Source: Mobula birostris (taxonomy: Eukaryota). Taken from it: a stretch of 64,000 bases of DNA. The position numbers and the translations under genes were made by a program. This document shows, piece by piece, positions 3,001-54,850 of this stretch. Location of the stretch: the NCBI RefSeq assembly GCF_030028105.1, contig NC_092372.1:173172058-173236057 (forward strand), read 5' to 3'. Position 1 is the stretch's first letter, and every line of letters starts with the position of its first letter. The notes under the pieces were generated by a model, which was given only the letters and a program-made list of their open reading frames with translations, made no database searches and was not told the DNA's origin.

Positions 3001-4020
3001 TTTGAGGTCCTGTTTCTCAACTTCTTTCCTAACTCCCTGTAGTCTATTTTCAGGACCTCCTCCCTTTTCCTACCTACGTCATTGTTACCAGTATGTACCA
3101 CGACCTCTGGCTGTTCTTCTTCCCACTTCAAGATATCGTGGACATGACCCTGGCACCTGGGAGGCAAACTACCATCCGTGTTTCTTTCCTGCGTCCACAG
3201 AATCACCTATCTGACCCCCTAGCTATAGAGTCCCCTATCACTGCTGCCATCCTCTTCCTTGCTCTACCCATCTGAGCCACAGGGCCAGACTCTGTGCCAG
3301 AGGCGTGACCACTGTTGCTTTCCCCAGGTAGGCCATCCCCCTCCCAACAGTACTCAAGCAGGAATACTTATTGTTAAGGGGGCCAGCCACTGGGGTACTC
3401 TCCAGTACCTGCTTCTTGCCCTTCCCTCTCCTGACTGTTACCTACTTCTCTGTCTCCTGTGATCCCGGGGTGACCACCTACCTTTAGCTCCTCTCTATCA
3501 CCTCCTCACTCTCCCTGATGCAGATGTGGCTGTCCGGGAGGCTGGGAGTCTCTAGGACCTCCCACATCAGACACCGAGCACAGAAAACCGGCCTCACACA
3601 CATACGCAAACAACAGGAATTCTGCAGATGCTGGAAATTCAAGCAACACTCATCAAAGTTGCTGGTGAACGCAGCAGGCCAGGCAGCATCTCTAGGAAGA
3701 GTTGCAGTCGACGTTTCAGGCCGAGACCCTTCGTCCTGACGGGTCTTGGCCTGAAACGTCGACTGCACCTCTTCCTAGAGATGCTGCCTGGTCTGCTGCG
3801 TTCACCAGCAACTTTGATGTGTGTTGCTCACACACATACTCTCTGTCTTTATTTTAAACAGATAACCTCCCTGGCCTCGACCCTTTATCGCCAAAGCCCT
3901 CCTACTCTGTCTCCCTCTATTCCCGCCCTGTAAATCTGTCTTCCTTTTAAACTCTTCCCGCTGTTCTCAATGGCCGACCTCCACGTGCTTGAGCAGTCGT
4001 TCACCGTTCAAACTGCCAAA
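50..4020 (-). mobile_element. CR1 LINE, near full length and decayed (ORF1 Zn-finger/SGNH esterase, ORF2 APE endonuclease-RT)
   Basis: ORF1 MCVRPVFCARCLMWEV and EQPEVVVHTGNNDV..VVISGLLP; endonuclease VFYRP, VVGDFNFPNIDW, GDSDH (1780-2481); RT region VPEDWRVADVFPLFKKG..PGNYRPVSLT (994-1671). Stops, frameshifts and internal deletions near 480 and 1020. Confidence 0.93.
3606..3826. mobile_element. Palindromic PLE-end mini-element inserted at the CR1 ORF1 start codon
   Basis: About 90-bp inverted arms (3641-3735 and 3737-3828); direct repeat ctcacacacatac at 3593-3605 and 3827-3839. Confidence 0.85.
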
Positions 4021-4089
4021 GAAACAATTATGGTGCTCAATTTTCTCATGCCACTTATTAGATAACTGAGAGCTAACAAAGGGACAGAC

Positions 4090-4690
4090 CAATCCTCATT
4101 GAAGGGTCACTGGGGGAAAAGGTAAGCAGCTTCAAATTCCCGGGCGTCATCATGGATGATTTATCCTGGACCCAATCCATTAATGCAATCACCAAAAAGG
4201 CGTGCCAGTGGCTTTACTTCATTAGGAGCTCGAGGAGATTTTTGTTATGCTACTAAAGACTCTTGCACAGTTCTATTGATACGCAGTTGAGAGCATTCTG
4301 ACTGCTTGCATCGCTCCAACGCACAGGATCGGAGAGTTGGAGAGTCAGCCAGATGCATCATGGGTACAATCCCACATCGTCAAAACGTCGTGCCCCAAGA
4401 AGGCACCATCCATCGTTAAGGAGACTCACCTCCTGGGACAAGCACTCTTCTCATTATTCCCATCAGGGAACAGGCACAGGAGTCCAAAGACTCACACTCA
4501 ACATTTTAGGAATAGTTTCTCCCCCTTCACCATCAGATTTCTAAACAGTTCGCTAACTCATGAACACTACCTCATTACTCCTCTTTTGCACGATATTTAT
4601 TTTTGTAACTTATAGTAAGTGTTACGTCTTTGTGCTGAACTGCTGCCACAGTACAACAAATTTCACATCATATGTCAGCGATAATCTCAT
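4090..4690 (+). mobile_element. Rex1/Babar-type LINE 3' fragment, old
   Basis: Decayed SFKFxG..DDLSW..KKAxQ motif, ESILT, and HxLFSLFPSGxRxRS..FRNSFSP, followed by a T-rich 3' UTR. Confidence 0.7.
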
Positions 4691-5247
4691 TCTGAGCATC
4701 TAATGCATTTGGACATGCAAACCCTTGGAACCATCTGGATGGCAAGGAAATTATCGAAATGCAATTCAAACATACAAGTTGCAAGTATAACATTAACTCA
4801 CTGCCTCTGATAATAGGTGGTTAAGTTAGTTGATACTGGATAGGTCATAGTCTGTGACATTTGAACTAGAACAAAAAAACTAATTTCATAACATATGCCA
4901 GTGGTAATAAGCCTGCTTCTGATTCTGGGAGACAAAACAAAACTGAAAACTATAATAAAACAATGAATGTCTAGCTTTCAGTATTAACAACAGATAATGG
5001 AAACCCTAATTTTAAGTGCTTATCTTTAATACAGAAAGCCAGGCATTCATTGTTTTTAAGAGAGTTTTGGAAAAGTGTGCAATTTCAAATTTATTTTCTT
5101 CTTGCTGCAGTACCTTACTCTTCTCACGGTGTGTCAGTGTAACACACCTTATGAAATAGCCTCTGACGCACCCTCTGCCTGCAAGTACAATATACTGCAG
5201 GAATATTAGCCCAGTAAACTCTCCCCGTGAAAACAGCTATCATAACA

Positions 5248-6008
5248 CAGTGAAATCCCATTGGGACAACTCTTAAAAAACAAAGACTACTTGAGAAAAT
5301 AGCTGGGATGCCCTTCATTTATTTGAGACACTATGCCGTTTAATTGAGACAGGAGCTTGTATCTAACTAGTGTCAGTCACCTGCACTTACGTGACTGTTA
5401 GACACTGCATTGTACTTACAGCGAACAGTTTTCTAATAGCATCAACTGCATGTGTTTGTGTTCAAAAAACAGTGATTTTTGTCACTGATAACTGGTGAGA
5501 AATAAGCAATAAGAAATTTGGAACCATTTTGCTCACTGCAGTTTCAAGCATTCAGGCTCGGAGATGCCAGAAATGTCCAGGAGTGAAAATGAAATTATTT
5601 CACTACTTCGACAAGTTAGGAACTACAAAGAACTTGAAGGTAACAATAATCATCTTGAATGTTACAATGAAAATGAAGATTTGGAAGGTGCAATCATCAA
5701 CAGCATTGTGCGTAGGCAGTTCATTATCTGCACCAAGTCTCTGCACTGGTTTGGTTCATTGTGTACACTGGATGAATTCCTCTGTCAATAATTATTAGGA
5801 ATTAATATAGTTTTACAGTACTGTTAGGAGTATTGATACTGTTATAATTTGTTCTGTATCTCATTTAAATACATAATTTGTTACTCAATAAAACAATAGT
5901 TTAGCTTTTTTTTAATACCTTTTTAACTATTTCCATTAACTGGAGCAGCCACATAATTGGGCCAAAATGTACTGGTCCTGATATAACCCAATTAACCAGA
6001 ATCTACTG
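5248..6008. mobile_element. Non-autonomous pogo/Tigger-like DNA transposon
   Basis: Right end cccaattaaccagaatctactg|ta (CAGTAGA-type TIR plus TA); decayed cagtg..ttgggac left end; acidic remnant ORF at 5564-5791. Confidence 0.55.
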
Positions 6009-6399
6009 TACAATGAAAACTACCAGACTATTTTAAATCAAAATATTTCTTGGCAATTTAGTTCATCAACTCCTCTCCTCTTCAGACCACTAGCACTTTG
6101 CAAATCTTGCTGCTGGCTGCATAAGTGGTGACAAACCAGTAGATGAATAGATGTCCCTCAGCCTCCGGGAATGCAACTTTCTATGAATATTATACAGAAA
6201 ATTGATCCCTCTCAGAAAACATCAAACACTTGTACATAGAAGCAGACCATTCTGCTCCTTGGCCCAATTCTGTCTTTCAATTGTAATTATGTCTGTTCTT
6301 TCACCTCAGCACCAGTTTCTTACACTAATCTCATAATTCCCTATTACCATAATATCTAACAATCCATTCCTCTATTTTCACGGCAGATCAAGAGTCATT

Positions 6400-7570: not shown

Positions 7571-7576
7571 CTCTAG

Positions 7577-7809: not shown

Positions 7810-9152
7810 AGTCTCGCTAGAGTCTCATTTAGAGTCCCATTCAATTATTGCAAAAACATCTATCTCTTACTCAAATACTCTCAAAAATCAGCAATAAAAC
7901 AGAAAATGCTGGGAAACTCAATGGTTCAAGTAGTGAACGTGGAGACACACAGTTAGCTTCAGATCTGGGACCTTCATCAAAAGCTACCATATTATTTGCC
8001 TTCTTAACTGCTTGCTAAACTGGCATATTAACTCAAAGAAAAATCAGTTCTGATGAAGAGTCCTTAAATTGACTTCTTGCAGTTTGGTATATGGAAAAAA
8101 TGTAATATCTACAAATGTAAAAATACATCTAGTTAACAGAGCATGCTAAATGATGCCCTGATTTAGCTGGTACTTCTGGATTATATAAACAACAATACTT
8201 CACATGGCCTTTGCTAACTTCCAACATTCTTCATCAATGAGAGGGATTATGAAAAATTCTTCTCATTTGACTGCTTTCAAAAAAAACTTCTAACAGTTTA
8301 TGTCTGCTACAGAGGAATAGCAAACCTCTATCCTAATCAGTGGGTCCACAACAAATTATGAACTTAGAAACACAGAAGCAAAAAAAACTTATTAAGCTCT
8401 TTGACCTACTCTCTCCTTCAAGATCACAACTTGACCTTCTACTTCAATGCCTTTTTCCTGTACAAGCCCACATCCCTTCAATCCACTTAATATCTGTTTA
8501 TCTCAGTTAAGAATAAATTCAAAGACTGCACCTCCACAGTTGTTCAGGGTCAGGAATTCCAAAAGATTCACCAGTTTGCTGCAATTCCATGATGGCTTCT
8601 AGTAACTTATGCCCAAGGACACCTTTGATTAATATTGGTACTTAATCTCTCATAATTTTAAAAAACTTTTATGTTCTATTATGTTCTTGCCCACTCACTC
8701 ACCTTCTCCACATTCCCTTGAATGTAATTTATACCTTCTCCCTATTCAAAATCCCACTTTGTTCACATCTTGAGCAAACTTGTAAATATGCCCATTGCAC
8801 TCAAGGGAGAAGAAACCACCAGTCATCTTTTCACACTATCCCTCACCGCAATATTGCATCTTCCCTCCAACAGGGACCGGCTGGAGAAGAGTTCATCTAC
8901 AGACAAATGGAAACTGATCCACACTGCCACATTAAACCAAGGTTACTCCATTCTTGGTCACTGAGTTACACTACTCTGATGATACTTTTACATCTGTATA
9001 CTCCGAAGCCAAGGTCTAATTCATTATTAATTCCTCCGTTGAAATATATGACATAATCGGCCTAATGTTAACTACCTGAAAGATAACAACCATTCATTAA
9101 CATGCCCCTACGCACATGGTCTCATTACCATAAATTTCCAAGGAAAATATAG

Positions 9153-9868
9153 ACACGAGGAAATCTGCAGATGCTGGAAATTCAAGCAACACACACAAAA
9201 AATGCTGGTGAACACAGCAGGCCAGGCAGCATCTGTAGGAAGAGGAACAGCTGACATTTCGGGCCGTGACCCTTCGTCAAGACTAACTGAAAGAAGAGAT
9301 AGTAAGAGATTTGAAAGTGGGAGGGAGAGGGGGAGATCCGAAATGATAGGAGAAGACAGGAAGGGGAAGGATGGAGCTAAGAGCTGGGAAGTTGATTAGC
9401 AAAAGGGATATGAGGCTGGAGAAGGGAGAGGATCATGGGATGGGAGGCCTAGGGAGAAAGAAAGGGGGAGGGGAGCCCAGAGGATGGGCAAGGAATATAG
9501 TGTGAGGGACAGAGGGAGAATAAATAAATAAATAAGGGATGGGGTACGAAGGGGAGGTGGCGCATTAACAGAAGTTAGAGAAGTCAATGTTCATGCCATC
9601 AGGTTGGAGGCTACCCAAATGGAATACAAGGTGTTGTTCCTCCAACCTGAGTGTGGCTTCACCTTGACAGTAGAGGAGGCTGTGGATAGACATGTCAGAA
9701 TGGGAATGGGATGTGGAATTAAAATGTGTGGCCACTGGGAGATCCCGCTTTCTCTGGCGGACAGAGCTTGGTGTTCAGCGAAACCCCAGCCTGCGTCGGG
9801 TCTCGCCAATATATAGAAGGCCGCATCGGGAGCACCGGACGCAGTATATCACCCCAGCTGACTCACAG
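9153..9868 (-). mobile_element. Penelope-like element, 5'-truncated (GIY-YIG C-terminus, 3' UTR, mutated hammerhead at 9249-9284)
   Basis: Colinear with the PLE at 43342-44090. Hammerhead core is TTGACGA (C3 mutated). Confidence 0.85.
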
Positions 9869-10204: not shown

Positions 10205-10305
10205 GCACTTATTCTGGCTTCTTCCCCCTTCCTTTCCAGTCCTGATGAAGGGTCTTGGCCTGAGACGATGACTGTATTTTCCTTTTCGTGGATGCCCTGC
10301 CTGTG
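10205..10305 (+). mobile_element. PLE terminal fragment with decayed hammerhead
   Basis: ccagtcCTGATGAagggtcttggcctGAGAcgatgactg at 10238-10273. Confidence 0.65.
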
Positions 10306-11677: not shown

Positions 11678-11679
11678 AT

Positions 11680-11723: not shown

Positions 11724-13457
11724 GAGTAGCATGCAAAAGTTTGGGCACCCCGGTCAAAATTTCTGTTACTGTGAATAGTTAAGTGAGTAGAAGATGAACT
11801 GATCTCCAGAAGTCGTAAAGTTAAAGATGAAACATTCATTTCAACATTTTAAGCAAGATTAGTGTATTATTTTTGTTTTGTACAATTTTACAGTGAAAAA
11901 AAGGAAAGGAGCACAATTCAAAAGTTTGGGCACCCCAAGAGATTTGAGCTCTCAGATAACTTTTACCAAGGTCTCAGACCTTCATTAGCTTGTTAGGGCT
12001 ATGGCTTGTTCACAGTCATCATTAGGAAAGGCCAGGTGATGCAAATTTCAAAGCTTTATAAATACCCTGACTCCTCAAACCTTGTCCCAAGGGATTTAGA
12101 ATGTATGTCTAGTGCACATTCTGGAGCAGAGGGTGGCGGTAATGCACCATTAAGCTGGATGCCAACCGCCGTAAAACAAGATACAGACAGACAGACAGAC
12201 AAACCTTGTCCCAACAATCAGCAGAGATGGGCTCCTCTAAGCAGCTGCCTAGTACTCTGAAAATTCGAATAAATGATGCCCACAAAGCAGGAGAAGGCTA
12301 TAAGAAGATAGCAAAGCGTTTTCAGGTAGCCGTTTCCACGGTTTGTAATGTAATTAAGAAATGGCAGTTAACAAGAACGGTGGAGGTCAAGTTGAGGTCT
12401 AGAAGACCAAGGAAACTTTCCGAGAGAACTGCTCGTAGGATTGCTAGAAAGGCAAATCAAAACCCCAGTTTGACTGCAAAAGACCTCCAGGAAGATTTAG
12501 CAGACTCTAGAGTGGTGGTGCACTGTTCTACTGTGCAGCGACACCTGCACAAATATGACTTTCGTGGAAGAGTCATCGGAAGAAAATCTTTCCTGCATCC
12601 TCACCACAAAATTCAGTGTCAGAAGTTTGCAACAGAACATCTAAATAAGCTGGATGCATTTTGGAACAAGTCCTGTGGACTGATGAAGTTAAAATAGAAC
12701 TTTTTGGCTGCAATGAGTAAAGGTATGTTTGGAGGAAAAAAGGGTACAGAATTTCATGAAGAGAACACCTCTCCAACTGTTAAGCATGGGGGTGGATCGA
12801 ACATGCTTTGGGCTTGTATTGCAGCCAGTGGCACGGGGAATATTTCACTGGTAGAGGGAAGAATTAAATAGCAGCAAATTCTGGAAGCAAACATCAGACC
12901 ATCTGTAAAAAAGCTGAAGATGAAAAGAGGATGGCTTCTACAATAGGATGATCCTGAACACATCTCAAAATCCACAATGGACTACCTCAAGAGGCACAAG
13001 CTGAAGGTTTTGCCATGGCCCTCACAGTCCCCCGACCAAAACATCATCGAAAATCTGTGGATAGACCTCAAAAGAGCAGTGCATGCAAGACAGCTCAAGA
13101 ATCTCACCGAACTAGAAGCCTTTTGCAAGGAAGAATGGGTGAAAATCCCCCAAACAAGAATTGAAAGACACCTAGCTGGCTACAGAAAGCGTTTACAAGC
13201 TGTGATACTTGCCAAAGGGGGTGTTACTAAGTACTGACCATGCATGGTGACCAAACTTTTGTTTTGGGCCCTTTTCCTTTTTTGTTATTTTGAAACTGTA
13301 AAAGATGGAATTAAAAAAGTAATCTTGCTTAAAATATTAAAGAAATGTGTCATCTTTAACTTTATGCCTTTTGGAAATCAGGTCATTGTTTACTCACTTA
13401 GCTTTTCACAGTAACAGAAATTTTGACCAGGGGTGCCCAAACTTCTGCATGCCACTG
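11724..13457 (+). mobile_element. Tc1-family transposon with long IR/DR ends and a pseudogenised transposase (about 12227-13237)
   Basis: TIR cagtggcatgcaaaagtttgggcacccc with an inner direct repeat at about 11919 and 13246; right end cactg|ta. Protein motifs GEGYKKIAKRF (HTH), VLWTDE, VKHGGGS and WPSQSPDQNIIENLW. Frameshifts and stops. Splits an old CR1 3' remnant (about 11440-11660 and 13470-13680). Confidence 0.93.
12091..12199 (+). mobile_element. Very short 5'-truncated retroposon tail inserted into the Tc1
   Basis: 15-bp TSD caaaccttgtcccaa (12076-12090 and 12200-12214); GGCGGT..ACCGCC stem-loop; (CAGA)n tail. Confidence 0.75.
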
Positions 13458-16434: not shown

Positions 16435-16930
16435 CACTCCGAGGTTGGAGGAACAACACCTTACATTTCGTCTAGGTTGCCTCCAACCTGAGGTCATGAA
16501 CATAGTTTTCTCCAACTTCCACACCTCTCCCCCCACCCCCGCTTCTCTCGTCTTCAATTCCCCCTTACCTCTTTTCTTTTCCTCACCTGCCTATCACCTT
16601 CCCCTGGTGCCCCTTCACCTTCACTTTCTTCATGGTCCACTCTCCTCTCAGATTCCTTCTTCTCCAGCCCTTTACTTTTCCGCTTCCCAGCTTCACTTCA
16701 TCAGTCCTGCCCATGTCACTTCACCTATCACCTTCTAGCCTATACTATACCCCTTCCCTTTCCTCCATCTTCTTCCGTCCTCCTTTCCAGTCTTGATGAA
16801 GGGTCTTGGCCTGAAATATCAACCGTTTGATGCCAACATGCTGCCTAACCTGCCGAGTTCCTACAGCATGTATGCTTTCCATACATGCTGCCTAACCTGC
16901 CGAGTTCCTACAGCATTTTGTGTGTGTTGC
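16435..16930 (+). mobile_element. PLE 3' fragment with decayed hammerhead (16789-16824)
   Basis: LEEQHLTFRLGCLQPEVMNIVFSNF (GIY-YIG C-terminus), pyrimidine-rich UTR, terminal repeat. Confidence 0.8.
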
Positions 16931-17919
16931 ACATCTATGCAAATATTTCTAAGTTTTAACATCACATGATCCAGTGCTCTCAACTGTTCTTCATTAACGG
17001 CAAGCACTGGAAAGAATTAGCATTGTAGTCACAATTGCACATTCGTTAGTGCTGACAGTGGAATGTGCACCTTACAAAACTTCTGCAATTGAATAAAAAT
17101 GCACTCTGTAATGTCCAGACAGCTCAGTTTAGCAGTGACAAGTTAACTCATCCAGGACCATGACCAAATCTTAGCAAGTGCCAAATTAACTAATTTTGAG
17201 CAATTTGCATTATCTGCCCAGCCAAGCAGGGGAATGGAGAAAAGGGTTCATTTGGTGTGTTCAAGGAGGCTTATGCACAAATATGGAGCAAATGGAAGAA
17301 GTGTCCAAAGAGCAACCAAGACGCTATATGCCAGAAAACTGTTTGAAACTTAAGGGAAATAAAAAACAGGCACAAAAAAAATAGAACAAAATTACACAGG
17401 ATTTGTCAACTAGGTCCCTCAAGCCTGCCCCACCATTCAATATGGTAATAGCTAATCTACCGCAGGCCTCAAATGTTCTTGTGTCAGTTCCCCACAACTC
17501 TTGATCTTTCAACTATTTATCTGTCTCTACTTTAGATGTATCTAGTAATTCATCACACTATTTTTCTTGCCTTTTTTCTCTCCCTCAAAGTGTCAAACTA
17601 CTTGCTCACTACCCTCTGAGAAAAGAAGGTTGTGTACACCCCAATTTTAGCTGATTGGCCTCTATTTTGCAGCAATATCCCCTTGTTTGTAGTTCTCCCA
17701 CTAGTGTAAATATTTCAAAATATTTCAACCCCCTCCCCCAATCTTTAAAGTTTAAACCTGTTCATCCTCATAGGCATATAAACCTAAACTGTATAGATTC
17801 TTTTGGTTAGGACAACCTCAACCAAGGAATTAACCTGGTGAATCTCCTATGGACCAACAACAGTTAATAAAACTCTATAATGGTTCATAATGCATTACCT
17901 TTGTCAAATAATCATCTTC

Positions 17920-20900: not shown

Positions 20901-22200
20901 CAAGTCAGCATGGATTTGTGAAAGGAAAATCATATCTGACCAATCTCAGAATTTTTTGAGGATGTAACTAGTAGAGTGGATAGGTGAGAACCAGTGGATG
21001 TGGTATATTTGGATTTTTAAAAGGCTTTTGACAAGGTCCCACACAGGAGATTAGTGTGCAAACTTACAGCACACGGTATTGGGGGTAAGGTATTGATGTG
21101 GATAGAGAATTGGTTGGCAGATAGGAAGCAAAGAGTGGGAACAAATGGGACCTTTTCAGAATGGCAGGCAGACTAGTGGGGTACCGCAAGGCTCAGTGCT
21201 GGGACCCCAGTTGTTTACAATATATATTAATGACTTAGACGAGGGAATTAAATACAGCATCTCCAAGTTTGCGGATGACACGAAGCTGGGTGGCAGTGTT
21301 AGCTGTGAGGAGGATGCTAAGAGGATGCAGGGTGACTTGGATAGGTTGGGTGAGTGGGCAAATTCATGGCAGATGCAATTTAATGTGGATAAATGTGAGG
21401 TTATCCACTTTGGTAGCAAAAACAGGAAAACAGATTATTATCTGAATGGTGGCCGATTAGGAAAAGGGGAGGTGCAACGAGACCTGGGTGTCATTGTACA
21501 CCGGTCATTGAAAGTGGGCATGCAGGTACAGCAGGCAGTGAAAAAGGCGAATGGTATGCTGGCATTCATAGCAAGAGGATTCGAGTACAGGAGCAGGGAG
21601 GTACTACTGCAGTTGTACAAGGCCTTGGTGAGACCACACCTGGAGTATTGTGTGCAGTTTTGGTCCCCTAATCTGAGGAGAGACATTCTTGCCATAGAGG
21701 GAGTACAAAGAAGGTTCACCAGATTGATTCCTGGGATGGCAGGACTTTCATACGATGAAAGACTGGATCGACTAGGCTTATACTTGCTGGAATTTAGAAG
21801 ATTGAGGGGGGATCTTATTGAAATGTATAAAATTCTAAAGGAATTGAACAGGCTAGATGCAGGAAGATTGTTCCTGATTTTGGGGAAGTCCAGAACGAGG
21901 GGTCACAGTTTGAGGATAAAGGGGAAGCCTTTTAGGACCGAGTTGAGGAAAATCTTCTTCACACAGAGAGTGGTGAATCTGTGGAATTCTCTGCCACAGG
22001 AAACAGTTGAGGCCAGTTCATTGGCTATATTTAAGAGGGAGTTAGATATGGTCCTTGTAGCTAAAGGGATCGGGGGTATGGAGAGAAGGCAGGTACAGGG
22101 TTCTGAGTTGGATGATCAGCCATGATCATACTGAATGGCGGTGCAGGCTCGAAGAGCCGAATGGCCTACTCCTGCACCTATTTTCTATGTTTTCTATGTC
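17920..22200 (+). mobile_element. Full-length CR1 LINE, mildly decayed
   Basis: ORF1 about 18202-19149: CSSCSMWE..YVCRKR Zn finger, VIGDS, HIGTNN and GLHL (SGNH esterase). ORF2 about 19150-22125: GITETW, VYRPP, MGDFN, SDHN, GVPQGSVLGP, FADD. 3' end ggcctactcctgcacctatt(ttctatgt)n. Several stops and frameshifts. Confidence 0.95.
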
Positions 22201-27295: not shown

Positions 27296-28786
27296 TAACT
27301 CTCCTTACTGATCACAAGCCACTGTTGTCGATCTTTGGAACTAAGGAAAGCATCCCAGTGTGTACAACGAACCATCTGCAAAGGTGGGCAATTACGTTAT
27401 TAGCTTATGATTTAGAAATCAAGTACACATCAACCCAGGAACTTGTTAAGACAGGTGCCCTCCCCAGACTTGTGAATCAACAGGTTACCGAAAATGAAGA
27501 GATAGTCCTGGCTGCAACTTCAATTGATTGCAAAGTCCAGAGGGCTGTATTGGATGCTGCTAAAGGTCTTTCTGTCACGGTTGACAAGATCAGAGCAGAA
27601 CCTGTTTCAGCTTATTGCCAGATACCTAGATGACAGATGGCCAGTCAAGGTCGAGGAAAATGTCATACCATTTTACAGACATCATACATTGCTCTAAACT
27701 GTGGACTCCTGCTCAATGCTTGAAGACAGAATAGTGATTCCAAAAGTACTGAAAGAATTCCACTGTGGTCAGTCGAATGAAAGCCCTGGCAAGAAGCTTT
27801 GTGTATTAGCCAGGCACATCTGTATGCAAGCAGTGGACTCAGTGGTCTATGGTAGCAAAAGATCCAAGTGGAGCCAATACACAACTCTGCCACCAGGCTA
27901 CCATATCTTGGAGTCGAGTACATATTGACTTTTGAGTACAAAAGTCAATGAGTACAACTCAATCAGCAGCTGTACCTACCTTGCCCTGGTTGATGCCTAT
28001 TGCGAATGGCCAGAAACATTATCCATGAAGTCAACAAGACAGAAGCTGCCATTCAACAGCTGCTGCAGATTTTTAGCCGCTTTGGGATTGCAGAAACACT
28101 TGTTTCTGACAACGGCCCTCAATTCAGTTCACAGCAGTTTGCTGCTTTCTGCCGGAACAGTGGAATTACCACATCCGAGTCACTCCCATATTATATACAG
28201 TCCAAAGGCCAAGCAGAGACGGTTGTCGATACATTCAAACAGTCACTTCTGAAATCAAGAGGGGAAGGAGCATCGGCCAAGGCTCTCAACATATTTTTGC
28301 TGATAGGTCAAATTATTCCACATCCAGGCCTGGGGGGGCGGGGTGGAAATGTCTCCAGCTGAAGCATTTTTTGAAGAAAACTACACATGTTGGATGCAAT
28401 GCTGCCACAGTGTCCAATATCTGAGACAGCAGATGGTCAGGTGCGCAAACACAGCCACACAGACCTTCGTCAACAGGTGAAGTCATTCAAGCCTAGAACT
28501 GCAGTGTGGGTCAAAAAGTATCCGCGAGAGGGATATACTCCTGGGTACCAGGTCAAATTGTCAAACAAATGGGGAAAGTGCTCTATGAAGTTATCTTAGA
28601 TGGACATTGCTGGTGTCATCACATCAACAAGTTTGTCGTGCAGATCATCAAACCCAGAGCTAAACCTTAATCTCTTCCTGGAAGGGATCAATTTACCCCT
28701 CCAAACCAACCACCAGTGCCAACATAGCCGCAAGCAACATCAGAACAAGGAAGTGACAGGCTGCAACCACTAAGAAGGACTAATCA

Positions 28787-28970
28787 ACACTCACAACACG
28801 CTGGAGAAACTCAGCGGGTCGGGCAGCATCCATGGAAACGAACAGTCAACATTTTGGGCTGGAACAATGACTGTTCATTTCCACGGATGCTGCCCGACCT
28901 GCTGAGTCCTCCAGTGTGTTGTGAGTGTTGCTTTGACCCCAGTACCTACAGATTATTTTGTGTTTAAGAC
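28787..28970. mobile_element. Palindromic PLE-end mini-element
   Basis: Inverted arms caacactcacaacacgctggag.. / ..ctccagtgtgttgtgagtgttg; TSD ggactaatca at 28777-28786 and 28971-28980. Confidence 0.8.
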
Positions 28971-29561
28971 GGACTAATCACCAGCAGAAATCAACCATCA
29001 GTTCAAATCTTACAGGTAATCTTCTTCAAGAGGGAGATATTACGGTGAGCCAATCAATGCCTACTGGTCAACTGACAACCAATCCTGGGATGACTTTCAG
29101 TAATTGATCATTGTTCCTATCAACATCTTGAACATTCTTGGTTTAACTATTTAAGTAGTCGTGCTTTGGGATGTACTATCAAGGTTTTGAGATTCTTGTA
29201 GTTGCATGGTCTTATTGAATAAAGGCGTGTATTGAGTTCCAGCTTTGTCCCATCTCCTGACCTTGAGTCTCATCAGTAGTAATAGGAGACTGAACACAAC
29301 AACATGCATAGATATTGGGCTGGATTGACCAAACCACTTACCAAGTAATTGTTGATATTAACCTTCTTGCCAGGCAGGAGGAGATTTGACTGGTAGAGTC
29401 ACACATATCTCAACTTTCCACTTGCTACACTGCTGAGAGAGCAGGAATCTTCTGGCCTTTCCTTATTGGCAGATGTCCACTGGTTCTGACCTAGATGTTA
29501 CGAATATTTTTTACGAATATCTGAATTGCACAGAATGTTGAAAAGCCCTGCTTTAAGACTG

Positions 29562-29713
29562 AACACACAGGAGACTGCAGATGCTGGAATCTGGAGCAAC
29601 AAACAATATGCTGAAGGAACTCAGTAGGTCAAGAGCATCTGTGGAAGGAAGGGAATTGTCAATGTTTTGTGTCAAAACCTTGCATCAGAACTGAGAGTAA
29701 AGAGAGGAGATGC
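29562..29713 (-). mobile_element. Old PLE terminal fragment
   Basis: ctgcagatgctggaatctggagcaacaaacaat.. with a decayed hammerhead; possible TSD ttaagactg at 29553-29561 and 29714-29722. Confidence 0.6.
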
Positions 29714-30267: not shown

Positions 30268-30776
30268 ACACAAAATGGGTTCAGACTGTAAAAGACATGT
30301 TGAGGTGACTTTAACAGGTGTCATTCATTCATTAGCATAGCTAACGTTATTTAAACTAGCTGGCTAGCTGCTAAGGAGCTACAGTGCAGACATCCCACCT
30401 CTCCCGGAAGTTCCGGGAGTCTCCCGCAAATTGATGGTGCTACCCCGCTGAGATGAGTTTTTGCAGGGTGGGATGTCTGTGAACACTGAGCTGCAGTTGA
30501 TGAACAGCAGCCTAATGTATCCCCCTCTACTACCCTTTGTTTTCCTGCCTATCATCTCCCTGCTTCCCCTCTCCCATCCCTTTGTCTTTCAAATTACTGG
30601 TTTTTCAACTGAACCTACCAGCCTTCTCCTTCCAACCCTCCCCCACCTTCTTCATAGGGCCTCTGCCCCTTCTCTCTTCAGTCCTGACGAAGGGTTCCGG
30701 CCCGAAATGTCGACTCATCGTTTCCACGGATGCTGCCCGACCTGCTGAGTTCCTCCAGCGTGTTGTGAGTGTTGCA
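30268..30776 (+). mobile_element. PLE 3' fragment (hammerhead-bearing) with a nested DNA-element piece at 30272-30479
   Basis: Outer direct repeat tcaacctcatga (30256-30267, 30777-30788); inner direct repeat tgaacac (30265-30271, 30480-30486). Confidence 0.7.
30680..30715 (+). ncRNA. Minimal type I hammerhead ribozyme, second PLE subfamily
   Basis: AGUC CUGACGA A GGGUUCCGGCCC GAAA UG UC GACU. Core and stems I/II intact; stem III CG>TG change consistent with CpG decay. Confidence 0.75.
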
Positions 30777-31399
30777 TCAACCTCATGAGACTTCAGAGAG
30801 ATGAGACAAAATGCCCAACACAGAAATAAGAAGGTTATTTCTATATAAGTAGGTTATTTCGTCCTTTGGATCAGTGCTGCCATTCATCAAGAACTTACAT
30901 GGCTTTACATTTATCTCAGCACTATTCCCACATACCTTAATACCTAGAAATCCATCAACCATTTTAAATGAATTTGATTGACCAGCTCCCATCCTCTAGG
31001 GTAAAAAAAAATTCTAATGATTCTTTGTGTAAAGAAATTTCTTCTCTTCTCAGCGCTAATTGGCCCGTTACATATTCTGAGAGTGACCCCTGGTTCTAAA
31101 CTCATCAGCCAGAGAAATGTTCCTCCTGCATCCTGCTCACTGTGAGAATGAACTGAAACTAACTCCAGGTTTAATCTACTCAACCTCTCTTCATAGGAAA
31201 GCACTACCATTCCTGGAACCAGTACAATGGGACAAAGGTGCAGAATGAAAATGATCATGCTGCCCCAACACACAGATGAGGTCATTTACAGGAGATAACC
31301 ATTCCAGTGCTGACAATTCTGCAAGTACAACGAAGAGACCGTGCTCCTGAAATTATGATTAGGCTGTCAATAGCCTCAACAGAAGCTGGGATTTCTCCT

Positions 31400-36910: not shown

Positions 36911-38131
36911 TAACAGCACATTTGGAAAGCGGTGAAATCATTGGACAAAGTCAGCATGGATTTGTGAAAGGAAAATCATGTCTGACAAATCTCAGAATTT
37001 TTTGAGGATGTAACTAGTAGAGTGGATAGGGGAGAACCAGTGGATGTGGTATATTTGGATTTTCAAAAGGCTTTTGACAAGCTCCCACACAGGAGATTAG
37101 TGTGCAAACTTAAAGCACATGGTATTAGGGGTAAGGTATTGATGTGGATAGAGAATTGGTTGGCAGACAGGAAGCAAAGAGTGGGAATAAACGGGACCTT
37201 TTCAGAATGGCAGGCAGTGACTAGTGGGGTACCACAAGGCTCACTGCTGGGACCCCAGTTGTTTACAATATATATTAATGACTTAGACGAGGGAATTAAA
37301 TGCAGCATCTCCAAGTTTGCGGATGACACGAAGCTGGGTGGCAGTGTTAGCTGTGAGGAGGATGCTAAGAGGATGCAGGGTGACTTGGATAGGTTAGGTG
37401 AGTGGGCAAATTCATAGCAGATGCAATTTAATGTGGATAAATGTGAGGTTATCCACTTTGGTGGCAAAAACAGGAAAACAGATTGTTATCTGAATGGTGG
37501 CCGATTAGGAAAAAGGGGAGGTGCAACGAGACCTGGGTGTCATTATACACCAGTCATTGAAAGTGGGCATGCAGGTACAGCAGGCGGTGAAAAAGGCAAA
37601 TGGTATGCTGACATTCATAGCAAGAGGATTCGAGTACAGGAGCAGGGAGGTACTACTACAGTTGTACAAGGTCTTGGTGAGACCACATCTGGAGTATTGT
37701 GTGCAGTTTTGGTCCCCTAATCTGAGGAAAGACATTCTTGCCATAGAGGGAGTACAAAGAAGGTTCACCAGATTGATTCCTGGGATGGCAGGACTTTCAT
37801 ATGATGAAAGACTGGATCAGCTAGGCTTATACTCGTTGGAATTTAGAAAATTGAGGGGGGATCTTATTGAAACGTATAAAATCCTAAAGGGATTGGACAG
37901 GCTAGATGCAGGAAGATTGTTCCCGATGTTGGGGAAGTCCAGAACGAGGGGTCACAGCTTGAGGATAAAGGGGAAGCCTTTTAGGACCGAGATGAGGAAA
38001 AACTTCTTCACACAGAGAGTGGTGAATCTGAGTTGGATGATCAGCCATGATCATACTGAATGGCGGTGCAGGCTCGAAGGGCCGAATGGCCTACTCCTGC
38101 ACCTATTTTCTATGTTTCTATGTTTCTATGT
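36911..38131 (+). mobile_element. 5'-truncated CR1, same subfamily as 17920-22200
   Basis: Near-identical to about 20866-22200; [14 protein letters not shown] and FADD; (tttctatg)n tail. Confidence 0.93.
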
Positions 38132-41787: not shown

Positions 41788-42294
41788 AAAAACTCAAACA
41801 CGAGGAAATCTGCAGATGCTGGAATTTCAAGCAACACACATAAAAATTGCTGGTGAACGCAGCAGGCCAGGCAGCATCTCTAGGAAGAGGTACAGTCGAC
41901 GTTTCGGGCCGAGACCCTTCGTCAGGACTAACTGAAAGAAGAGATAGTAAGATTTTTTTTTCTCTCTTTTTCTCCCTCTGTCCCTTTCACTGTAACCCTT
42001 GCCCATCCTCTAGGTTCCCCCCCCCCTTTTCTTTCTCCCTGGGCCTCCTGTCCCATGATCCTCTCATATCCCTTTTACCAATCACCTGTCCAGCTCTTGG
42101 CTCCATCCCTCCCCCTCCTGTCTTCTCCTATCATTTTGGATCTCCCCCTCCCCCTCCCACTTTCAAATCTCTTACTAGCTCTTCTTTCAGTTAGTCCTGA
42201 CGAAAGGTTTCAGCCCGAAACGTTAACTGTACCTCTTCCTAGAGATGCTGCCTGGCCTGCTGCGTTCACCAGCAACTTTTATGTGTGTTGCTTG
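41788..42294. mobile_element. PLE insertion with inverted terminal repeats (two hammerhead copies facing outward)
   Basis: Minus arm 41795-41955 and plus arm about 41960-42294; 14-bp TSD atgttaatactttt at 41774-41787 and 42295-42308. Confidence 0.9.
41894..41929 (-). ncRNA. Minimal type I hammerhead ribozyme (PLE-associated), intact core
   Basis: Minus strand: AGUC CUGACGA A GGGUCUCGGCCC GAAA CG UC GACU. Stem I AGUC/GACU, conserved CUGANGA and GAAA, stem II GGG/CCC, palindromic ACGU stem III, GUC cleavage triplet. Confidence 0.85.
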
Positions 42295-42430
42295 ATGTTA
42301 ATACTTTTGCGTGGTTTGTACATTGAGATCATGTGCAGTGTGCCAGATATCCCTGATACATAAATGCAATTCAGTTCAGTAGGCTGTGTTGCAAAGTATT
42401 ATTTTAAACTCTAGCAACTTTCGATCAAAT

Positions 42431-42679
42431 GGCAAGGAAAGGTAAGTCGCATCCGGAGTTTCTCCGGTTAGCGGACGATTTCCCTCCATGCCTCTCTGAC
42501 GTAGTGGGAAACCTTTACAGCAGTGGTTTGCCATTGCCTTCTGCCAGGTGAGTTTCCAAAGAGATCACCAGTTCGTAACCCAGCACAGATGGAAAGCGTG
42601 CAGGGGAGCCGGCTGGGTTCAAACTTGGGACCTTTTGTCCCGAAGTCCGACGCTGATGCCTCTACGCCACCAGCTGATC
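42431..42679 (-). mobile_element. tRNA-derived SINE with an RTE/BovB-type tail motif
   Basis: Minus-strand head TGGTGGCGTAGAGG..GTTTGAACCC; GAAGGCAATGGCAAACCACT motif; TSD ttcgatcaaat at 42420-42430 and 42680-42690. Confidence 0.8.
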
Positions 42680-43341
42680 TTCGATCAAATAGTTTTTTTT
42701 AAATTAGCAAATACAAGGTTTATTGGTGAGGGGATACACCTATTGTGCTTTTTGAATTCTAACTTCCTACAAGTTAAAGTCCTACAACATCCACCCCCTA
42801 AATGCAGAATTTCAGGCTGGCCAATTATCAGCTGTATCTTCATTGAAGAAAATAGCAAAGCATTGTCATCAGAAGTGTGACACCCATTCTAAATTTCTAG
42901 TGGTTATGAGTGAGTGAAAGAAAGTCAAATACTGAAAGGTAGGCTGATAGGAAGCACAAGTGATTGAGGAAGGGGATAGAGAGGGAGCTACTGAGGGCCA
43001 TTTTTCTCCTGACAATTGAGAGGTAGCCTGCATTTGTAGATGGTACTCTAATGAAACTACTAAAACTCCAGCAACCAAGGTTTGATTCTGACTTTTAGGG
43101 GCTGTCTGTGTGGATATGCATGTCTTTCTGTGACCATGTAGTTGTTGGGAGTTCAATTCACAACTGCAAATTGCCCCTGATGTGAAGGTGTGTGGGAGGG
43201 CAAAAATGGGATAAGTATATATAGTCAGCATGGATTTGTTGGGCTAAAGGGCCAATTTAAATGCTGTACAACTCTATGGCTTCTTTCATTGTTAGAAAGG
43301 GGCAAACAAACCCAATGTCACATCCAAAGAACATTGAATGA

Positions 43342-44497
43342 TGAGAACAACAGGAATTCTGCAGATGCTGGAAATTCAAGCAACACACATCAAAGTTGCT
43401 GGTGAACGCAGCAGGCCAGACAGCATCTCTAGGAAGAGGTACAGTCGACGTTTCAGGCCGAGACCCTTCGTCAGGACTAACTGAAGGAAGAGTTAGTAAG
43501 AGATTTGAAAGTGGGAGGGGGAGGGGGAGATCCAAAATGATAGGAGAAGACAGGAGGGGGATGGATGGAGCCAGGAGCTGGACAGGTGATTGGCAAAAGG
43601 GATATGAGAGGATCATGGGACAGGAGGCCCAGGGAGAAAGACGGAAGGGGGGGGGAAATCCAGAGGATGGGCAAGGGGTATAGTCAGAGGGACAGAGGGA
43701 GAAAAAGGAGAGTGAGAGAAAGAATGTGTGTATGAAAATAAATAACGGATGGGGTACGAGGGGGAGGTGGGGCATTAGCGGAAGTTAGAGAAGTCGATGT
43801 TCATGCCATCAGGTTGGAGGCTACCCAGACTGAATATAAGGTGTTGTTCCTCCAACCTGAGTGTGGATTCATCTTTACAGTAGAGGAGGCCGTGGATAGA
43901 CATGTCAGAATGGGATGTGGAATTAAAATGTGTGGCCACTGGGAGATCCTGCTTTCTCTGGCAGACAAAGCGTAGGTGTTCAGCAAAGCGGTCTCCCAGT
44001 CTGTGTAGGGTCTCGCCAATATATAGAAGGCCACATTGGGAGCACCGGACGCAGTATATCACCCCAGCCGACTCGCAGGTGAAGTGTCGCCTCACCTGGA
44101 AGGACTGTTTGGGGCCTTGAACGGTGGTAAGGGAGGAAGTGTAAAGGGCATGTGTAGCACTCGTTCCGCTTACAAGGATAAGTGCCAGGAGGGAGATCAG
44201 TGGGGAGGGATGGGGGGGTACGAATGGACAAGGGAGTCGCGTAGGGAGCGATCCCTGCGGAAAGCAGAGAGAGGTAGGGAGGGAAAGATGTGCTTCGTGG
44301 TTGGATCCCATTGGAGGTGGCGGAAGTTACGGAGAATAATATGTTGGACCCGGAGGCTGGTGGGGTGGTAGGTGAGGATCTGGGGAACCCTATTCCTAGT
44401 GGGGTGGCGGGAGGATGGAGTGAGAGCAGATGTACGTGAAATGGGGGAGATGCGTTTGAGAGCAGAGTTGATGGTGGAGGAAGGGAAGCCCCTTTCT
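43342..44497 (-). mobile_element. Penelope-like element (Neptune-type), 5'-truncated: RT C-terminus, Cys linker and GIY-YIG endonuclease
   Basis: FKERGFP..LTYHP..AFRRDRSLRDSLV, PCKRNECYTCP, VIYCVRCSQCGLLYIGET..RFAEH..VATHFN..EQHLIFSLGSLQPDGMN; TSD ttgaatga at 43334-43341 and 44498-44505. Confidence 0.93.
43443..43478 (-). ncRNA. Minimal type I hammerhead ribozyme (PLE-associated), intact core
   Basis: Minus strand: AGUC CUGACGA A GGGUCUCGGCCU GAAA CG UC GACU. First stem II pair is G-U. Lies in the 3' terminal repeat of a GIY-YIG PLE. Confidence 0.8.
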
Positions 44498-45229
44498 TTG
44501 AATGACAAGATATAGCTTTAAAGGGGGGGGGGGAGATAAACCAGTGTTCAAATTTGACAATTGGTGAAACAACATTAAAACATCTTTGAAAATGCACGCA
44601 GTCTCTGACCTGATTTGTGATTCTCGGTAATATATTTTAAAAAACCTTAACGCTTGTGTGCATAGTTCTTGGAATCATCCTCATTACAAATTCGTAGGAC
44701 TATTTTTACATGTCCTGGGAATAGGAACTGCTGAGAAAATTGTCATGTTAATTGGCCTCTCCCCTCGGTGTGATGCGGCGCCAAAAAATATCATCACGTA
44801 TTCCAGATTACATTGGGCAAATGAAGGAAGTCACACCAAAACCGTAAAAACAAAGATAATTAGAACAACGTGAAACTGGCATTTAAGAGCCGTGTGACTG
44901 AAGTGTTATCACTGATTCTATTAGAAAGGTAGGAGCGGGTATTATATATACTGTATATAATGGTGTATCTCTCAAAACGGGGGGGGGGGGAGAAAAAAGA
45001 GCTAAAGTGGAGGTTTGGTTATTCTACAAGACTGGTCCAATTATCCCCAGGCACAGTTCAAATCTACATGTCTCTCGATCTCCAATCACCATATGGAATT
45101 GAATAAGATAAATTTACATTTATCACCAACTATAAAGCACGCCAGGTCAAAGGAAACCAAAAGATTTGGTCTTTTTAAATTCTGCCCAGCTGGTTTCAAA
45201 GGGATTTCTCCCAGCCGGAACACAAAGTA

Positions 45230-45620
45230 AACTCTTTGCAGAGCGCCGTCACTTACAATCTCGGCGATCATGAGCAGCCCGGGAAAGGTCTTGAGGAAAG
45301 CCCGGTCGCAGCTCCTGGCCGTCGAGCCGAAAGACGAGGTGTAGGTGCTGCTCGTTGTGCTGATAGTCCGGGGTCGATCTTCCATCTTTGAAAGGACACG
45401 GCGCTAACTTTGGAAACTTTGCCCGTGTATCACTGGGAATCGGAGCCGGGCGCCGAAGTCAAAGCTGCGGGAAATCCATGGTATTGAACCTCGGAGCCCC
45501 AGCGACAATGCGGCAGCGCGGACAGCCGGCGGGCCACACTCCCCCAGGTGGCTGAGATAACGTCAGGTAAACTCAACAGAGCATTCACCGCCGTCTCTAC
45601 ACGCCCCTCTGCAAATGGTA
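45230..45620 (-). promoter_or_regulatory. CpG-rich island, cmtm8 promoter and 5' UTR
   Basis: Non-repeat GC/CpG-rich patch overlapping exon 1; TGACGT (CRE-like) on the minus strand near 45560. Confidence 0.6.
45257..45385 (-). CDS. cmtm8: CKLF-like MARVEL transmembrane domain protein 8, coding exon 1
   Basis: Translates to MEDRPRTISTTSSTYTSSFGSTARSCDRAFLKTFPGLLMIAEI, matching the recalled vertebrate CMTM8 N-terminus (..YDREFLRTLPGFLIVAEI). Ends in phase 0 at a perfect GTAAGT donor (plus-strand acttac 45251-45256). ATG context is aagATGG. The gpd1l 3' end lies upstream on the same strand, as in mammals. Confidence 0.9.
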
Positions 45621-48941: not shown

Positions 48942-49473
48942 CTGTAGAGCATTGGGCTTCTAGGTTTCTCAAGCATATGTATTTACTAATTGTTGTCCTA
49001 ACAAGAGTCGTTAAGCCCTTGTGCTTTCTGTTTGACCTTTGAGTGGCACGGGTTTTGCACTTTCTATATTTATTTAATGTGGAATCCTGTTAAGTTTTTT
49101 TTGCAGAGTCCCTGTGTTTAGAATGATGTTTTACATTGTCACTCACTCATGCCACCAGTGCTCTGTTGGTGTTCCGATGTATAAGCTCTTGTTTTCTGTC
49201 TCTACATGGGAGTCTGTCGTCCCTCCGCACCTAGGTTCAGTCACGGTCAGCGCTCACTGTGACAGAGTCTGTCATTCCTTCACACTTGGGTTCAGTTGTG
49301 GCCAGCATTCACTATGACAGTAAGGCCTTAAGACACAGGACTGAATTAGGCCATTCAGCCTATCGAGTTTGCTCTGCCATTCAATCATGGCCGATTTATT
49401 ACCCCGCTCAACTGCATTTGCCTGCCTTCTCCACATAACCTTTGACACCCTTACTAATCAAGAACCCATCAAC

Positions 49474-49542
49474 ACACATCAAAGTTGCTGGTGAATGCAG
49501 CAGGCCAGGCAGCATCTGTAGGAAGAGGTGCAGTTGACGTTT
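49474..49542 (-). mobile_element. Tiny PLE terminal fragment inside a CR1 tail
   Basis: acacatcaaagttgctggtga..gacgttt flanked by cccatcaac (49465-49473 and 49543-49551). Confidence 0.7.
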
Positions 49543-50429
49543 CCCATCAACCCATCCACTTTAAATGACTTGGCCTCCACAGCCATCTGTGGCAAAGAAT
49601 TCCAAATATTCGCTACCCTCTGGTGAAAGAAATTCCATACTAATTGTGTTGAATCAGACTCTGTCTCTTCAAATGTTGGTAGATCCTGTATCTCAGAATC
49701 TCCTCCAGCAATTTAGCCACTACTAATGTCAGACTCACTGGCCTGTAGTTTCCTGGCTTGTTTTTTTTTCCTACCCTTTTTTAAAAATCAACCACTTTCC
49801 AGTTGTCTAGAACTTGACCTGTGGCCAGACATAAAGCAAAAATCTCTGCAAGGATTTCCACAATTTCTTCTAGCTTCCCACAATGTCTGAGAATGCACCA
49901 GGACAGGCTCTGGGAATGTATCTAACTTAATGCACTTCAATGCCTTATCCCTGCTAATTATATGTGGTCACAGACAACAACACTCATATTTCTGTAATTC
50001 TCTCCAATAAAAACTGAATGGAAATATTCATTAAAAATCTTTCCTTTGGTTCCACAGTTTTGTCTCTCCTGTTTTTTCTAATCACACAGTTACATGCTAG
50101 ATTGTAGTGGTCCACTACCCTTGTACCTTGCTTAACATGTCAATCTTCACATGTAGGTGCAAGGAGCTCATAGTCTTTCTCCAGGTCCTTTCTTTAAAAG
50201 ATTGTGAAAATTGAAAGGCTATTCCACTCAGGTGGCATCACATCTGCCCTCACCAAATTTGCAACAATGAAATCTTTGTAGCATGTATTATGTGACAGAG
50301 GTGTTTCAGGCACTGTAATAATACAGATATTAATTGGGAATATGAACGCAGAATGAATTCCAGTCAAGTGACACCCCACTTAAACCTCTAACCCAGTATA
50401 TTCTTTTCCCCCTTCTTCCCTCTTGGGGA

Positions 50430-50750: not shown

Positions 50751-50759
50751 ACCAAAGGC

Positions 50760-53724: not shown

Positions 53725-53900
53725 GCTATCACTATTTAAAGATGTCACAAAATGCTTTACAATTAATGCAATGCTTCCTTGAAATGTAGTAACTGACTAC
53801 CCTGTAGTATCACGTGGGAAACACACATCCAATTTGCAGATAGGAAAGCCAGTAATGTGATAATAAGCAGAAAGTATGCAATCCTGGCTTATTTCAGATT
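53725..53900 (-). mobile_element. DeuSINE remnant
   Basis: aaaatgctttaca..tgaaatgtagtaactg..ggaaacac..ccaatttgca..aatgtgataat resembles the Deu domain as recalled from AmnSINE1/SacSINE1. Confidence 0.5.
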
Positions 53901-54299
53901 TCTAGCATTCACTTTACTTTCCATTGCTAATTTTGGAGTTATTCTGCACTTCCTGACTAATCCCTTGTACCTTCACATGTTCCACCCCCACATTCTCTTA
54001 TCACCATTGTGTCATTTAATGTCACCTGCCTTCCAATCTGTCACAGACATTCACTTTTGCTCTTCTCTCTCCTCACCAGTCTCCTGCATCTTAAAACTTG
54101 TTTTATCTCTCTCTTTCCCCCGTCTGACCAAGCATCATCAGCCAAAAGCATTAACTGTTTCCTTCTCCTCGGATGCTGTTGGACCTGCATTTGTTTCTCA
54201 AGTTATCGAGCCTTGGAGAGATACAGCATGGAGGCTCATTTTATTACCAAATTATGTATGCAGAGTAGAACTCTGTAATTTTTCTTACAGATAGCCATA

Positions 54300-54540
54300 G
54301 TCAGCTATCCTTTCATACTAATCCTACTTTAACCTCATTCACTATTCTTCCCACGTTATTATCAACTTCCCAAAGATTCTTCCACTGTTGGGACAATGGG
54401 TAATTAATGAACCAGCCTGTAGGTGGGATGTGTGAAGCAACTGGAGCACCCAGTCAAAACCCATGTGGTCACAGGGAGAAAATGCGAACTCCACACAGAC
54501 AGAACCGGAGGTCAGCAGCAAACACTGGACCAGGTGACCC
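54300..54540 (-). mobile_element. V-SINE (HE1-like)
   Basis: Minus strand TCTGTGTGGAGTTCGCATTTTCTCCCTGTGACC V-domain. Similar copies at about 43050-43280, 52590-52860, 55905-56165 and 61770-62100. Confidence 0.65.
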
Positions 54541-54689
54541 ACTGTTAATAATGGCTTTTAGATTGAGAGATAAGTATCGCACAGGTTATTAAAGAGAACT
54601 TTCTTAAGAACTACAGGAAGTGGTTAAAGCAGATGTTACTGATGTATTGAAAGAGGGGCTGGATAAGGTAATGGAGAATTTTTTTTAAA

Positions 54690-54850
54690 AAGGAGGAAAT
54701 CTGCAGATGCTGGAAATCAAATACATACAAAATGCTGGAGGAACACAGCAGGCCAGGTAGTATCTATGGAAAAAAGTAAACAGTTGATGTTTCAAGCCAA
54801 AACTCTTCATCAGTACTGGAAAAAGATGAGAAGTCAAAAGATGAAGAGGA
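54690..54850 (-). mobile_element. PLE terminal fragment with hammerhead core (54782-54817)
   Basis: Minus strand agtaCTGATGAagagttttggcttGAAAcaTCaact; core retained, stems decayed. Confidence 0.65.

What the first reader, a model, noticed from the sequence alone, without database searches (positions are those of the whole stretch)
3700..54820. High density of hammerhead ribozyme motifs from several PLE subfamilies
About ten recognisable copies in 64 kb: 3706-3755 (two, broken), 9249-9284, 10238-10273, 16789-16824, about 29655-29690, 30680-30715, 41894-41929, 42193-42228, 43443-43478 and 54782-54817. They share CUGANGA, an extra A, stem II, GAAA, a 2-nt stem III loop and UC. Stem II differs between copies (GGGUCUCGGCCC, GGGUUCCGGCCC, GAGUUUUGGCUU) while remaining pairable, which suggests selection on structure in the master elements. 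If this window is typical, the genome would hold a very large ribozyme complement. PLE hammerheads are known in general; I cannot tell whether this family is described.
Basis: partly seen in the sequence, partly recalled or inferred. Interest (0 to 1): 0.7.

Follow-up and report, generated by a model that had tools for sequence, protein, structure and literature searches.

The report
Penelope retrotransposon hammerheads, mostly decayed
The repeated motif is a published kind of tiny RNA element predicted to cut itself, carried at the end of a very abundant Penelope-type jumping gene; most copies are broken, and their ends suggest the gene is likely copied from uncut RNA.

Summary
The motifs are real (10 matches in the window, 0 in 50 shuffles). 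They are the published minimal type-I hammerhead at the end of a Penelope-like retrotransposon with Neptune-type domains. Only 2 of the 11 listed arms are fully intact. Stem III is a loop-less ACGU palindrome (dimer type), not a 2-nt loop. The genome has 87,164 intact-core matches (control 589), and the window's density is typical. The stem II argument fails: variants are loop changes or transition decay, and a compensated A-U pair occurs in only 111 of 2,681 copies, as independent mutation predicts. The hammerhead is, however, conserved between subfamilies more than its flanks. Extra: 30 of 130 young copies begin at the first bases of stem I (20-fold excess), but only 2 of 130 at the cut site, so templates are likely uncut. 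In rare stutters, 25 of about 86 loci end exactly at the scissile base. Nine sites lie in intron 1 of a CMTM8b-like gene, with no orientation bias. The scan already reported this family, the boundary and the stutters on other DNA of this genome.

The parts
43442..43478 (-). Fully intact minimal hammerhead, G10.1.U11.1 subfamily; predicted cut between 43447 and 43446
43346..44502 (-). 5'-truncated PLE copy: RT C-terminal remnant, Cys linker, GIY-YIG, pyrimidine-rich 3' region, hammerhead, long tail
41893..41929 (-). Fully intact minimal hammerhead, G10.1-C11.1 subfamily; predicted cut between 41898 and 41897
41790..42292 (.). Head-to-head insertion: minus arm 41951-41790 (long tail) and plus arm 41961-42292 (short tail; damaged hammerhead 42193-42229)
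3604..3828 (.). Head-to-head pair joined inside the hammerhead; both ribozymes broken; long tail on the minus arm, short tail on the plus arm
9150..9868 (-). 5'-truncated PLE copy with GIY-YIG remnant; hammerhead 9248-9284 with C3U and broken stem I
10238..10274 (+). Older-family hammerhead relic, core broken (GAGA, AU at the cut site)
16435..16932 (+). Older-family copy: endonuclease C-terminal remnant, hammerhead relic 16789-16825 (C3U), duplicated tail
29560..29709 (-). Old, heavily decayed copy; core lost
30662..30800 (+). Copy of the UCCG-loop subfamily; hammerhead 30680-30716 with intact core and ACGU decayed to AUGU
54682..54829 (-). Older copy; hammerhead 54781-54817 with intact core letters but transitions in stems I-III (source of GAGUUUUGGCUU)
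28781..28970 (.). Missed head-to-head pair joined within stem II; ribozymes incomplete
49470..49543 (-). Missed fragment starting at G12, with short tail
45257..45385 (-). Coding part of exon 1 of a host CMTM8b-like gene; intron 1 (about 47.5 kb) covers window 45256 down to 1

Best explanation
Each motif is a minimal type-I hammerhead sequence lying after the endonuclease gene of a very abundant Penelope-like retrotransposon; it is predicted to cut only as a dimer, and the scattered copies are mostly broken relics that were likely reverse-transcribed from uncut RNA. Shown: the unit is 3,766 nt from hammerhead to hammerhead; the ORF start lies 138 nt past the predicted cut; copies end 3' at two tail sites (about +62 to +75 and +98 to +115) and are often joined head to head. 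Inferred: the element RNA likely starts at the first base of stem I; RT primes internally in the tail and runs through the uncut ribozyme to that 5' end. Inferred, weaker: cleavage happens occasionally, and RT then jumps onto the 3' end of the cut fragment, leaving stutters that end at C17. Dispersed copies decay roughly neutrally.
For: Element identity: RT motifs, CX4CxxC linker and GIY-YIG in one 716-aa frame (Pfam RVT_1 E 3e-4 and GIY-YIG E 9e-4, both under the curated cut-offs); direct hammerhead pairs around the ORF in L267 and L268. The motif fits the published consensus CUGANGAH-G..C-GAAAN-palindrome-NUH. Uncut templates: 30 of 130 tail-selected copies start at -28 to -35 (20-fold over background, p 2e-25), 2 of 130 within 3 nt of the cut (1.2-fold, p 0.69). 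Without inverted flanks: 11 versus 38 events, 9-fold, p 2e-7. The same edge occurs in 4 of 13 copies of the UCCG-loop family and in 2 of 3 full-length 5' ends. The monomer's predicted fold pairs the core into a rod about 4 kcal/mol below the hammerhead fold. Decay: G8 in its CpG mutates at 7%, like other CpGs. Stutters: 25 of about 86 loci end at C17. In Anolis Poseidon, uncut RNA was the dominant substrate and ribozyme mutants still inserted (PMC11167929).
Against: No cleavage, expression or start site was measured. Core non-CpG sites show slightly fewer changes than flanks (12 versus 19.3 expected, p 0.053), so weak selection on copies is not excluded. The boundary sample comes from the first 6.3 Mb of one contig, counts both arms of inverted pairs, and has 22 of 130 copies censored. 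A second stutter peak at +6 (12 loci) has no ribozyme explanation. Joints that restart at the cut site show no clear peak (about 2 of 11 loci). Neptune assignment rests on motifs; no tree was built.
Confidence: 0.8

Rival explanations
1. The pile-up of 5' ends at stem I is not an RNA start but a stop of RT: the new cDNA refolds into the 38-nt hairpin once it is fully copied, or a bound factor (for example at the splice-acceptor-like signal just upstream) blocks RT.
For: The peak coincides with the 5' edge of the predicted rod hairpin. A branch-point-like sequence, pyrimidine tract and AG precede stem I in all three subfamilies (motif meaning recalled). In D. virilis the intron ends at helix I and the start site lies 46 nt before a 75-nt intron.
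Against: The upstream edge is sharp (9 at -32, 3 at -33, 1 at -34), as expected for a template end. The sequence there fits an initiator consensus (recalled). In 5 of 11 non-inverted copies a target duplication abuts the boundary by eye, with no foreign exon.
Confidence: 0.3
2. The ribozyme routinely cuts tandem transcripts into unit-length RNAs that circularise and serve as the main template (model of Cervera and de la Pena 2014).
For: Direct tandems exist (L267, L268). Stutters end at C17. The core is conserved between subfamilies. A re-ligated circle would leave no mark at the cut site.
Against: A circle has no 5' end, so it does not explain the peak at stem I unless RT stalls there. Only 3 of 30 loci reaching the ORF's 5' part extend to a same-strand upstream hammerhead, and 2 of these stop at it.
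Confidence: 0.15
3. Dispersed intact copies act as host regulators, for example the two sense copies 1,549 nt apart dimerise and cut the CMTM8b pre-mRNA.
For: Both fully intact copies in the window are sense in intron 1. A double-hammerhead fold is formally possible (-14.1 kcal/mol).
Against: In the predicted fold of the pre-mRNA the 43474 copy is paired with the antisense arm at 42193-42229 and the 41925 copy forms the rod. Alternative dimers are much more stable (-32.2). Orientation is 5 sense to 5 antisense, and decay is near neutral.
Confidence: 0.04

Closest known systems
Minimal hammerheads (min-HHR) in pLTRs of metazoan PLEs (Cervera and de la Pena 2014, PMC4209133; main text parts 1-2 of 4 and supplement file 2 part 2 read)
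   Same: Type I, extra base after A9, loop-less palindromic helix III (CG), short helix I, mostly single dispersed copies and close opposite-strand pairs. G.U at 10.1-11.1 already appears in its coelacanth and Xenopus rows.
   Different: Helix II is 4 bp here. The count is 87,164 against about 4,000 and 9,000 reported for coelacanth and Xenopus (other descriptor and genome sizes). No cartilaginous fish appears in the alignment rows seen.
Neptune-clade EN+ PLEs (Craig et al. 2021, bioRxiv 2021.04.23.441226 / PMC8557442; passages read)
   Same: RT, CX2-5CxxC linker, C-terminal GIY-YIG, partial tandems, inverted 5'-truncated copies, 30-40 nt tail on one end.
   Different: Clade placement not tested by a tree; long Pro/Ser-rich N-terminal region with internal repeats.
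Poseidon of Anolis carolinensis (Frangieh et al. 2024, PMC11167929; parts 1-2 of 4 read)
   Same: Two internal RT start sites defining the tail; uncut RNA as template; both strands primed.
   Different: There the ORF starts inside the hammerhead; here it starts 138 nt past the cut. That paper reports no 5'-end peak at stem I in the parts read.
Non-LTR retrozymes (Li et al. 2026, bioRxiv 10.64898/2026.07.22.740005; part 1 of 5 and passages read)
   Same: Type-I hammerheads related to PLE pLTRs; reported in one chondrichthyan.
   Different: Defined as tandem repeats; the window's copies are dispersed truncations of the autonomous element, with no tandem array.

Membership tests
PLE minimal hammerhead | Core CUGANGA / GAAA / UH | tested here: met
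   Subfamily majorities and 5 of 11 window arms; 73 of 96 spanning young copies
PLE minimal hammerhead | Extra base between 9 and 10.1 | tested here: met
   A in 111 of 111
PLE minimal hammerhead | Palindromic 15.2-16.2, no helix III loop | tested here: met
   ACGU majority; CG positions 87-91% intact
PLE minimal hammerhead | G10.1-C11.1 pair | tested here: inconclusive
   C in 38 and U in 81 of 121 young copies; U is a subfamily trait; G.U also occurs in published rows
PLE minimal hammerhead | Located in both flanking repeats of a PLE | tested here: met
   L267 and L268
PLE minimal hammerhead | Compensatory changes among families in a genome | tested here: not met
   None in 73 unselected copies, 111 of 2,681 at one pair, none between the two well-sampled majorities; these subfamilies are closely related, so power is low
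PLE minimal hammerhead | Self-cleavage as dimer | not testable with these tools
   Only folding energies and stutter ends
EN+ Penelope-like element | Single ORF with RT and C-terminal GIY-YIG | tested here: met
   716-aa frame in L108 (Pfam scores under cut-off); ORF start to stop seen only across frameshifted copies
EN+ Penelope-like element | Partial tandems, inverted copies, tail on one end | tested here: met
   66 long and 64 short tails of 130
Neptune clade | CX2-5CxxC linker before GIY-YIG (shared with Nematis) | tested here: met
   CX4CxxC
Neptune clade | RT phylogeny | not tested
   no reference proteins in session
Non-LTR retrozyme | Tandem repeat units each with a hammerhead | tested here: not met
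   only 109 short stutters genome-wide for one pattern

The most novel reading that the evidence does not exclude
This Neptune-type element starts its RNA at the first base of the hammerhead, so that cleavage 32 nt in would uncap the transcript and act as an off-switch; the genome holds fossil copies of that 32-nt cleavage product, giving genomic evidence that a metazoan PLE minimal hammerhead cuts in the germ line.
Probability: 0.3. Interest if true: 0.6.

Novelty: new member of a known kind. Interest (0 to 1): 0.3.

Why it matters
The motif class is published, so the density alone is a record-size example rather than a surprise. The role of hammerheads in PLEs is still called unclear in the literature. 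With tens of thousands of young copies, this genome lets insertion ends be read as a record of the RNA templates, and it gives exact positions to test: an RNA start at stem I and cut ends at C17.

Tried and rejected
Rfam scan: no hammerhead family hit. Sequencing runs: no RNA holder listed; the four runs laid were contigs and say nothing on expression or cleavage. Selection on structure from stem II variants: rejected. G10.1.U11.1 as a novelty: a real subfamily trait (0 of 81 versus 6 of 38 G-to-A next door, p 8e-4; tail linkage p 4e-6) but already in published rows. Splicing to host exons as the cause of the boundary: no shared or foreign exon seen. Joints restarting at the cut site: 12 matches, no clear peak. 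The older family majority rests on 3 copies and was not used. The protein atlas gave only a weak MARVEL lead. Lunse et al. 2017 could not be read (not held); it is cited only through the review PMC6765202 (passages). Literature searches for this family in cartilaginous fish and for a 5'-end peak at stem I found no description in the listings or passages seen. Supplement file 1 of PMC4209133 and bioRxiv supplements were not seen and may bear on this.

Full report
Positions are given relative to the predicted cut (0 = first base after C17); hammerhead numbering is standard.

Observation. A pattern with up to 9 substitutions finds 10 matches in the window and none in 50 shuffles. Only 5 of the 11 arms keep all core letters, and only two (C3 at 41925 and 43474, minus strand) are fully intact. 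Rfam has no hit.

What carries it. Upstream of the motif lie a pyrimidine-rich stretch and a GIY-YIG remnant. That protein piece has 241,781 first-look candidates in the 4.01-Gb genome. Longer copies show RT motifs, a CX4CxxC linker and GIY-YIG in one 716-aa frame. The linker marks Neptune and Nematis (passages); no tree was built. Loci L267 and L268 have two same-strand hammerheads around the ORF, 3,766 nt apart in L267, with the ORF start at +138. Copies end 3' in two clusters, about +62 to +75 and +98 to +115 (64 short and 66 long of 130), and head-to-head pairs in the window carry one of each. This is the PLE tail, which in Anolis Poseidon marks two internal RT start sites. The host is a cartilaginous fish by inference: an exon in the window is 88% identical to a skate CMTM8b.

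Abundance. The intact-core pattern with ACGU has 87,164 matches against 589 for the reversed control; one exact variant has 9,134. Unselected stretches gave 97 hammerhead-covering profile hits in 750 kb and 73 pattern hits in 810 kb, 32 with intact core and 8 fully intact. That extrapolates to roughly 0.36-0.53 million recognisable remnants, and the window is typical. Cervera and de la Pena reported about 4,000 in coelacanth and 9,000 in Xenopus with another descriptor.

Selection on structure. The motif fits the published consensus. This suggests constraint in the masters, without compensatory pairs. The third variant is decay: A10.2 goes with a compensating U in 111 cases and with unchanged C in 2,570, matching a 2-5% independent rate; the exact stem appears in 3 of 100 listed rows. 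Among 130 tail-selected young copies (132 found, 2 duplicates dropped), non-CpG core sites changed 12 times against 19.3 expected from flanks (p 0.053), and G8 in its CpG decayed at 7% like other CpGs. U at 11.1 (81 of 121) is a master trait, linked to tail type, but G.U at that pair is in published rows.

Mechanism from copy ends. If cut RNA were the template, copies would start at 0. They do not: 2 of 130 start within 3 nt of it (1.2-fold, p 0.69), while 30 of 130 start at -28 to -35, the 5' strand of stem I, with mode -32 (20-fold, p 2e-25; 22 copies censored). Excluding copies flanked by an inverted arm leaves 11 against 38 background events (9-fold, p 2e-7), and 5 of the 11 show a target duplication at the boundary by eye. 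The same edge occurs in 4 of 13 copies of the UCCG-loop family but only 1 of 17 of a mixed older set, and in 2 of the 3 loci, out of 30, that reach the upstream hammerhead from the ORF. The sample comes from the first 6.3 Mb of one contig and counts both arms of pairs. The simplest reading is an RNA start at the A of AGUC, which fits an initiator consensus (recalled); D. virilis Penelope has an internal promoter in its pLTR, though its start lies further upstream (passages). A hairpin- or protein-induced RT stop is the rival. The monomer is predicted to fold into a rod that pairs the core, and double-hammerhead folds are far less stable than alternative dimers (energy models ignore tertiary contacts). 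This agrees with the low activity and need for factors reported for such motifs.

Traces of cleavage. A pattern for short direct stutters has 109 matches; I tallied the 100 listed rows by eye as about 86 loci. The upstream piece ends exactly at C17 in 25, at +6 in 12, at +2 in 8-9 and at -2 in 7-8, over about 29 possible positions. I fetched those 25 loci and 14 of the 16 ending at +5 or +6; the ends were confirmed, and 24 of the 25 pieces start within 51 nt upstream. Only one of the 25 has the GTC microhomology that would explain it trivially. The +6 peak shows that RT has other preferred landing points, and joints restarting at 0 show no peak among 12 matches. Cleavage is suggested, not shown.

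Host context. Exon 1 of the CMTM8b-like gene lies at 45385-45257 on the minus strand and exon 2 about 2.3 kb before the window start, so 9 of the 10 sites are in its 47.5-kb first intron: 5 arms sense, 5 antisense. Both intact copies are sense and 1,549 nt apart, but in the predicted fold one is paired with the intervening antisense arm and the other forms the rod. A regulatory role is unlikely.

Verdict. A new member of a known kind. The copy-end pattern was not found in my literature searches, but the scan had already noted it in other windows of this genome; my counts were made before I saw those notes. Interest 0.3.

Noticed in passing
window 45257-45385 (-), with G000:C4:173169609-173169785, 173151787-173151981, 173150796-173150882: CMTM8b-like MARVEL gene; first intron about 47.5 kb, GC-rich region upstream of exon 1.
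   Followed up: partly
window 41827-43654: Inverted PLE arms (279 nt, 94% complementary) predicted to form long double-stranded RNA in the CMTM8b pre-mRNA, a possible editing substrate.
   Followed up: partly
window 43479-43500 (-) and other copies: Branch-point-like sequence, pyrimidine tract and AG directly before stem I, like the intron end at helix I in D. virilis Penelope; no donor was sought.
   Followed up: no
window 12143-13234 (+), inverted repeats 11748-11907 / 13274-13432: Tc1/Sleeping Beauty-like transposase remnant with terminal inverted repeats (Pfam PF01498, PF25787).
   Followed up: no
window 2-2490 (-), 18990-22192 (+), 36912-38131 (+): CR1-like LINE remnants (label recalled; RVT_1 hit); two copies are 96-97% identical over about 900 nt.
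   Followed up: no
window 57821-59681 (+): Fragmented remnant resembling an L1/Tx1-type ORF2 (label recalled; no Pfam hit for the one piece tested).
   Followed up: no
L114:6121-6444 and relatives: The element's N-terminal ORF region has a Pro/Ser-rich repeat of about 105-215 nt whose copy number varies among loci.
   Followed up: no
rows: A second stutter end at +6, just past stem I (12 loci), is unexplained.
   Followed up: partly
L134 and L143 (G000:C7, about 230 kb apart): Near-identical flanks around one insertion: a local segmental duplication.
   Followed up: no
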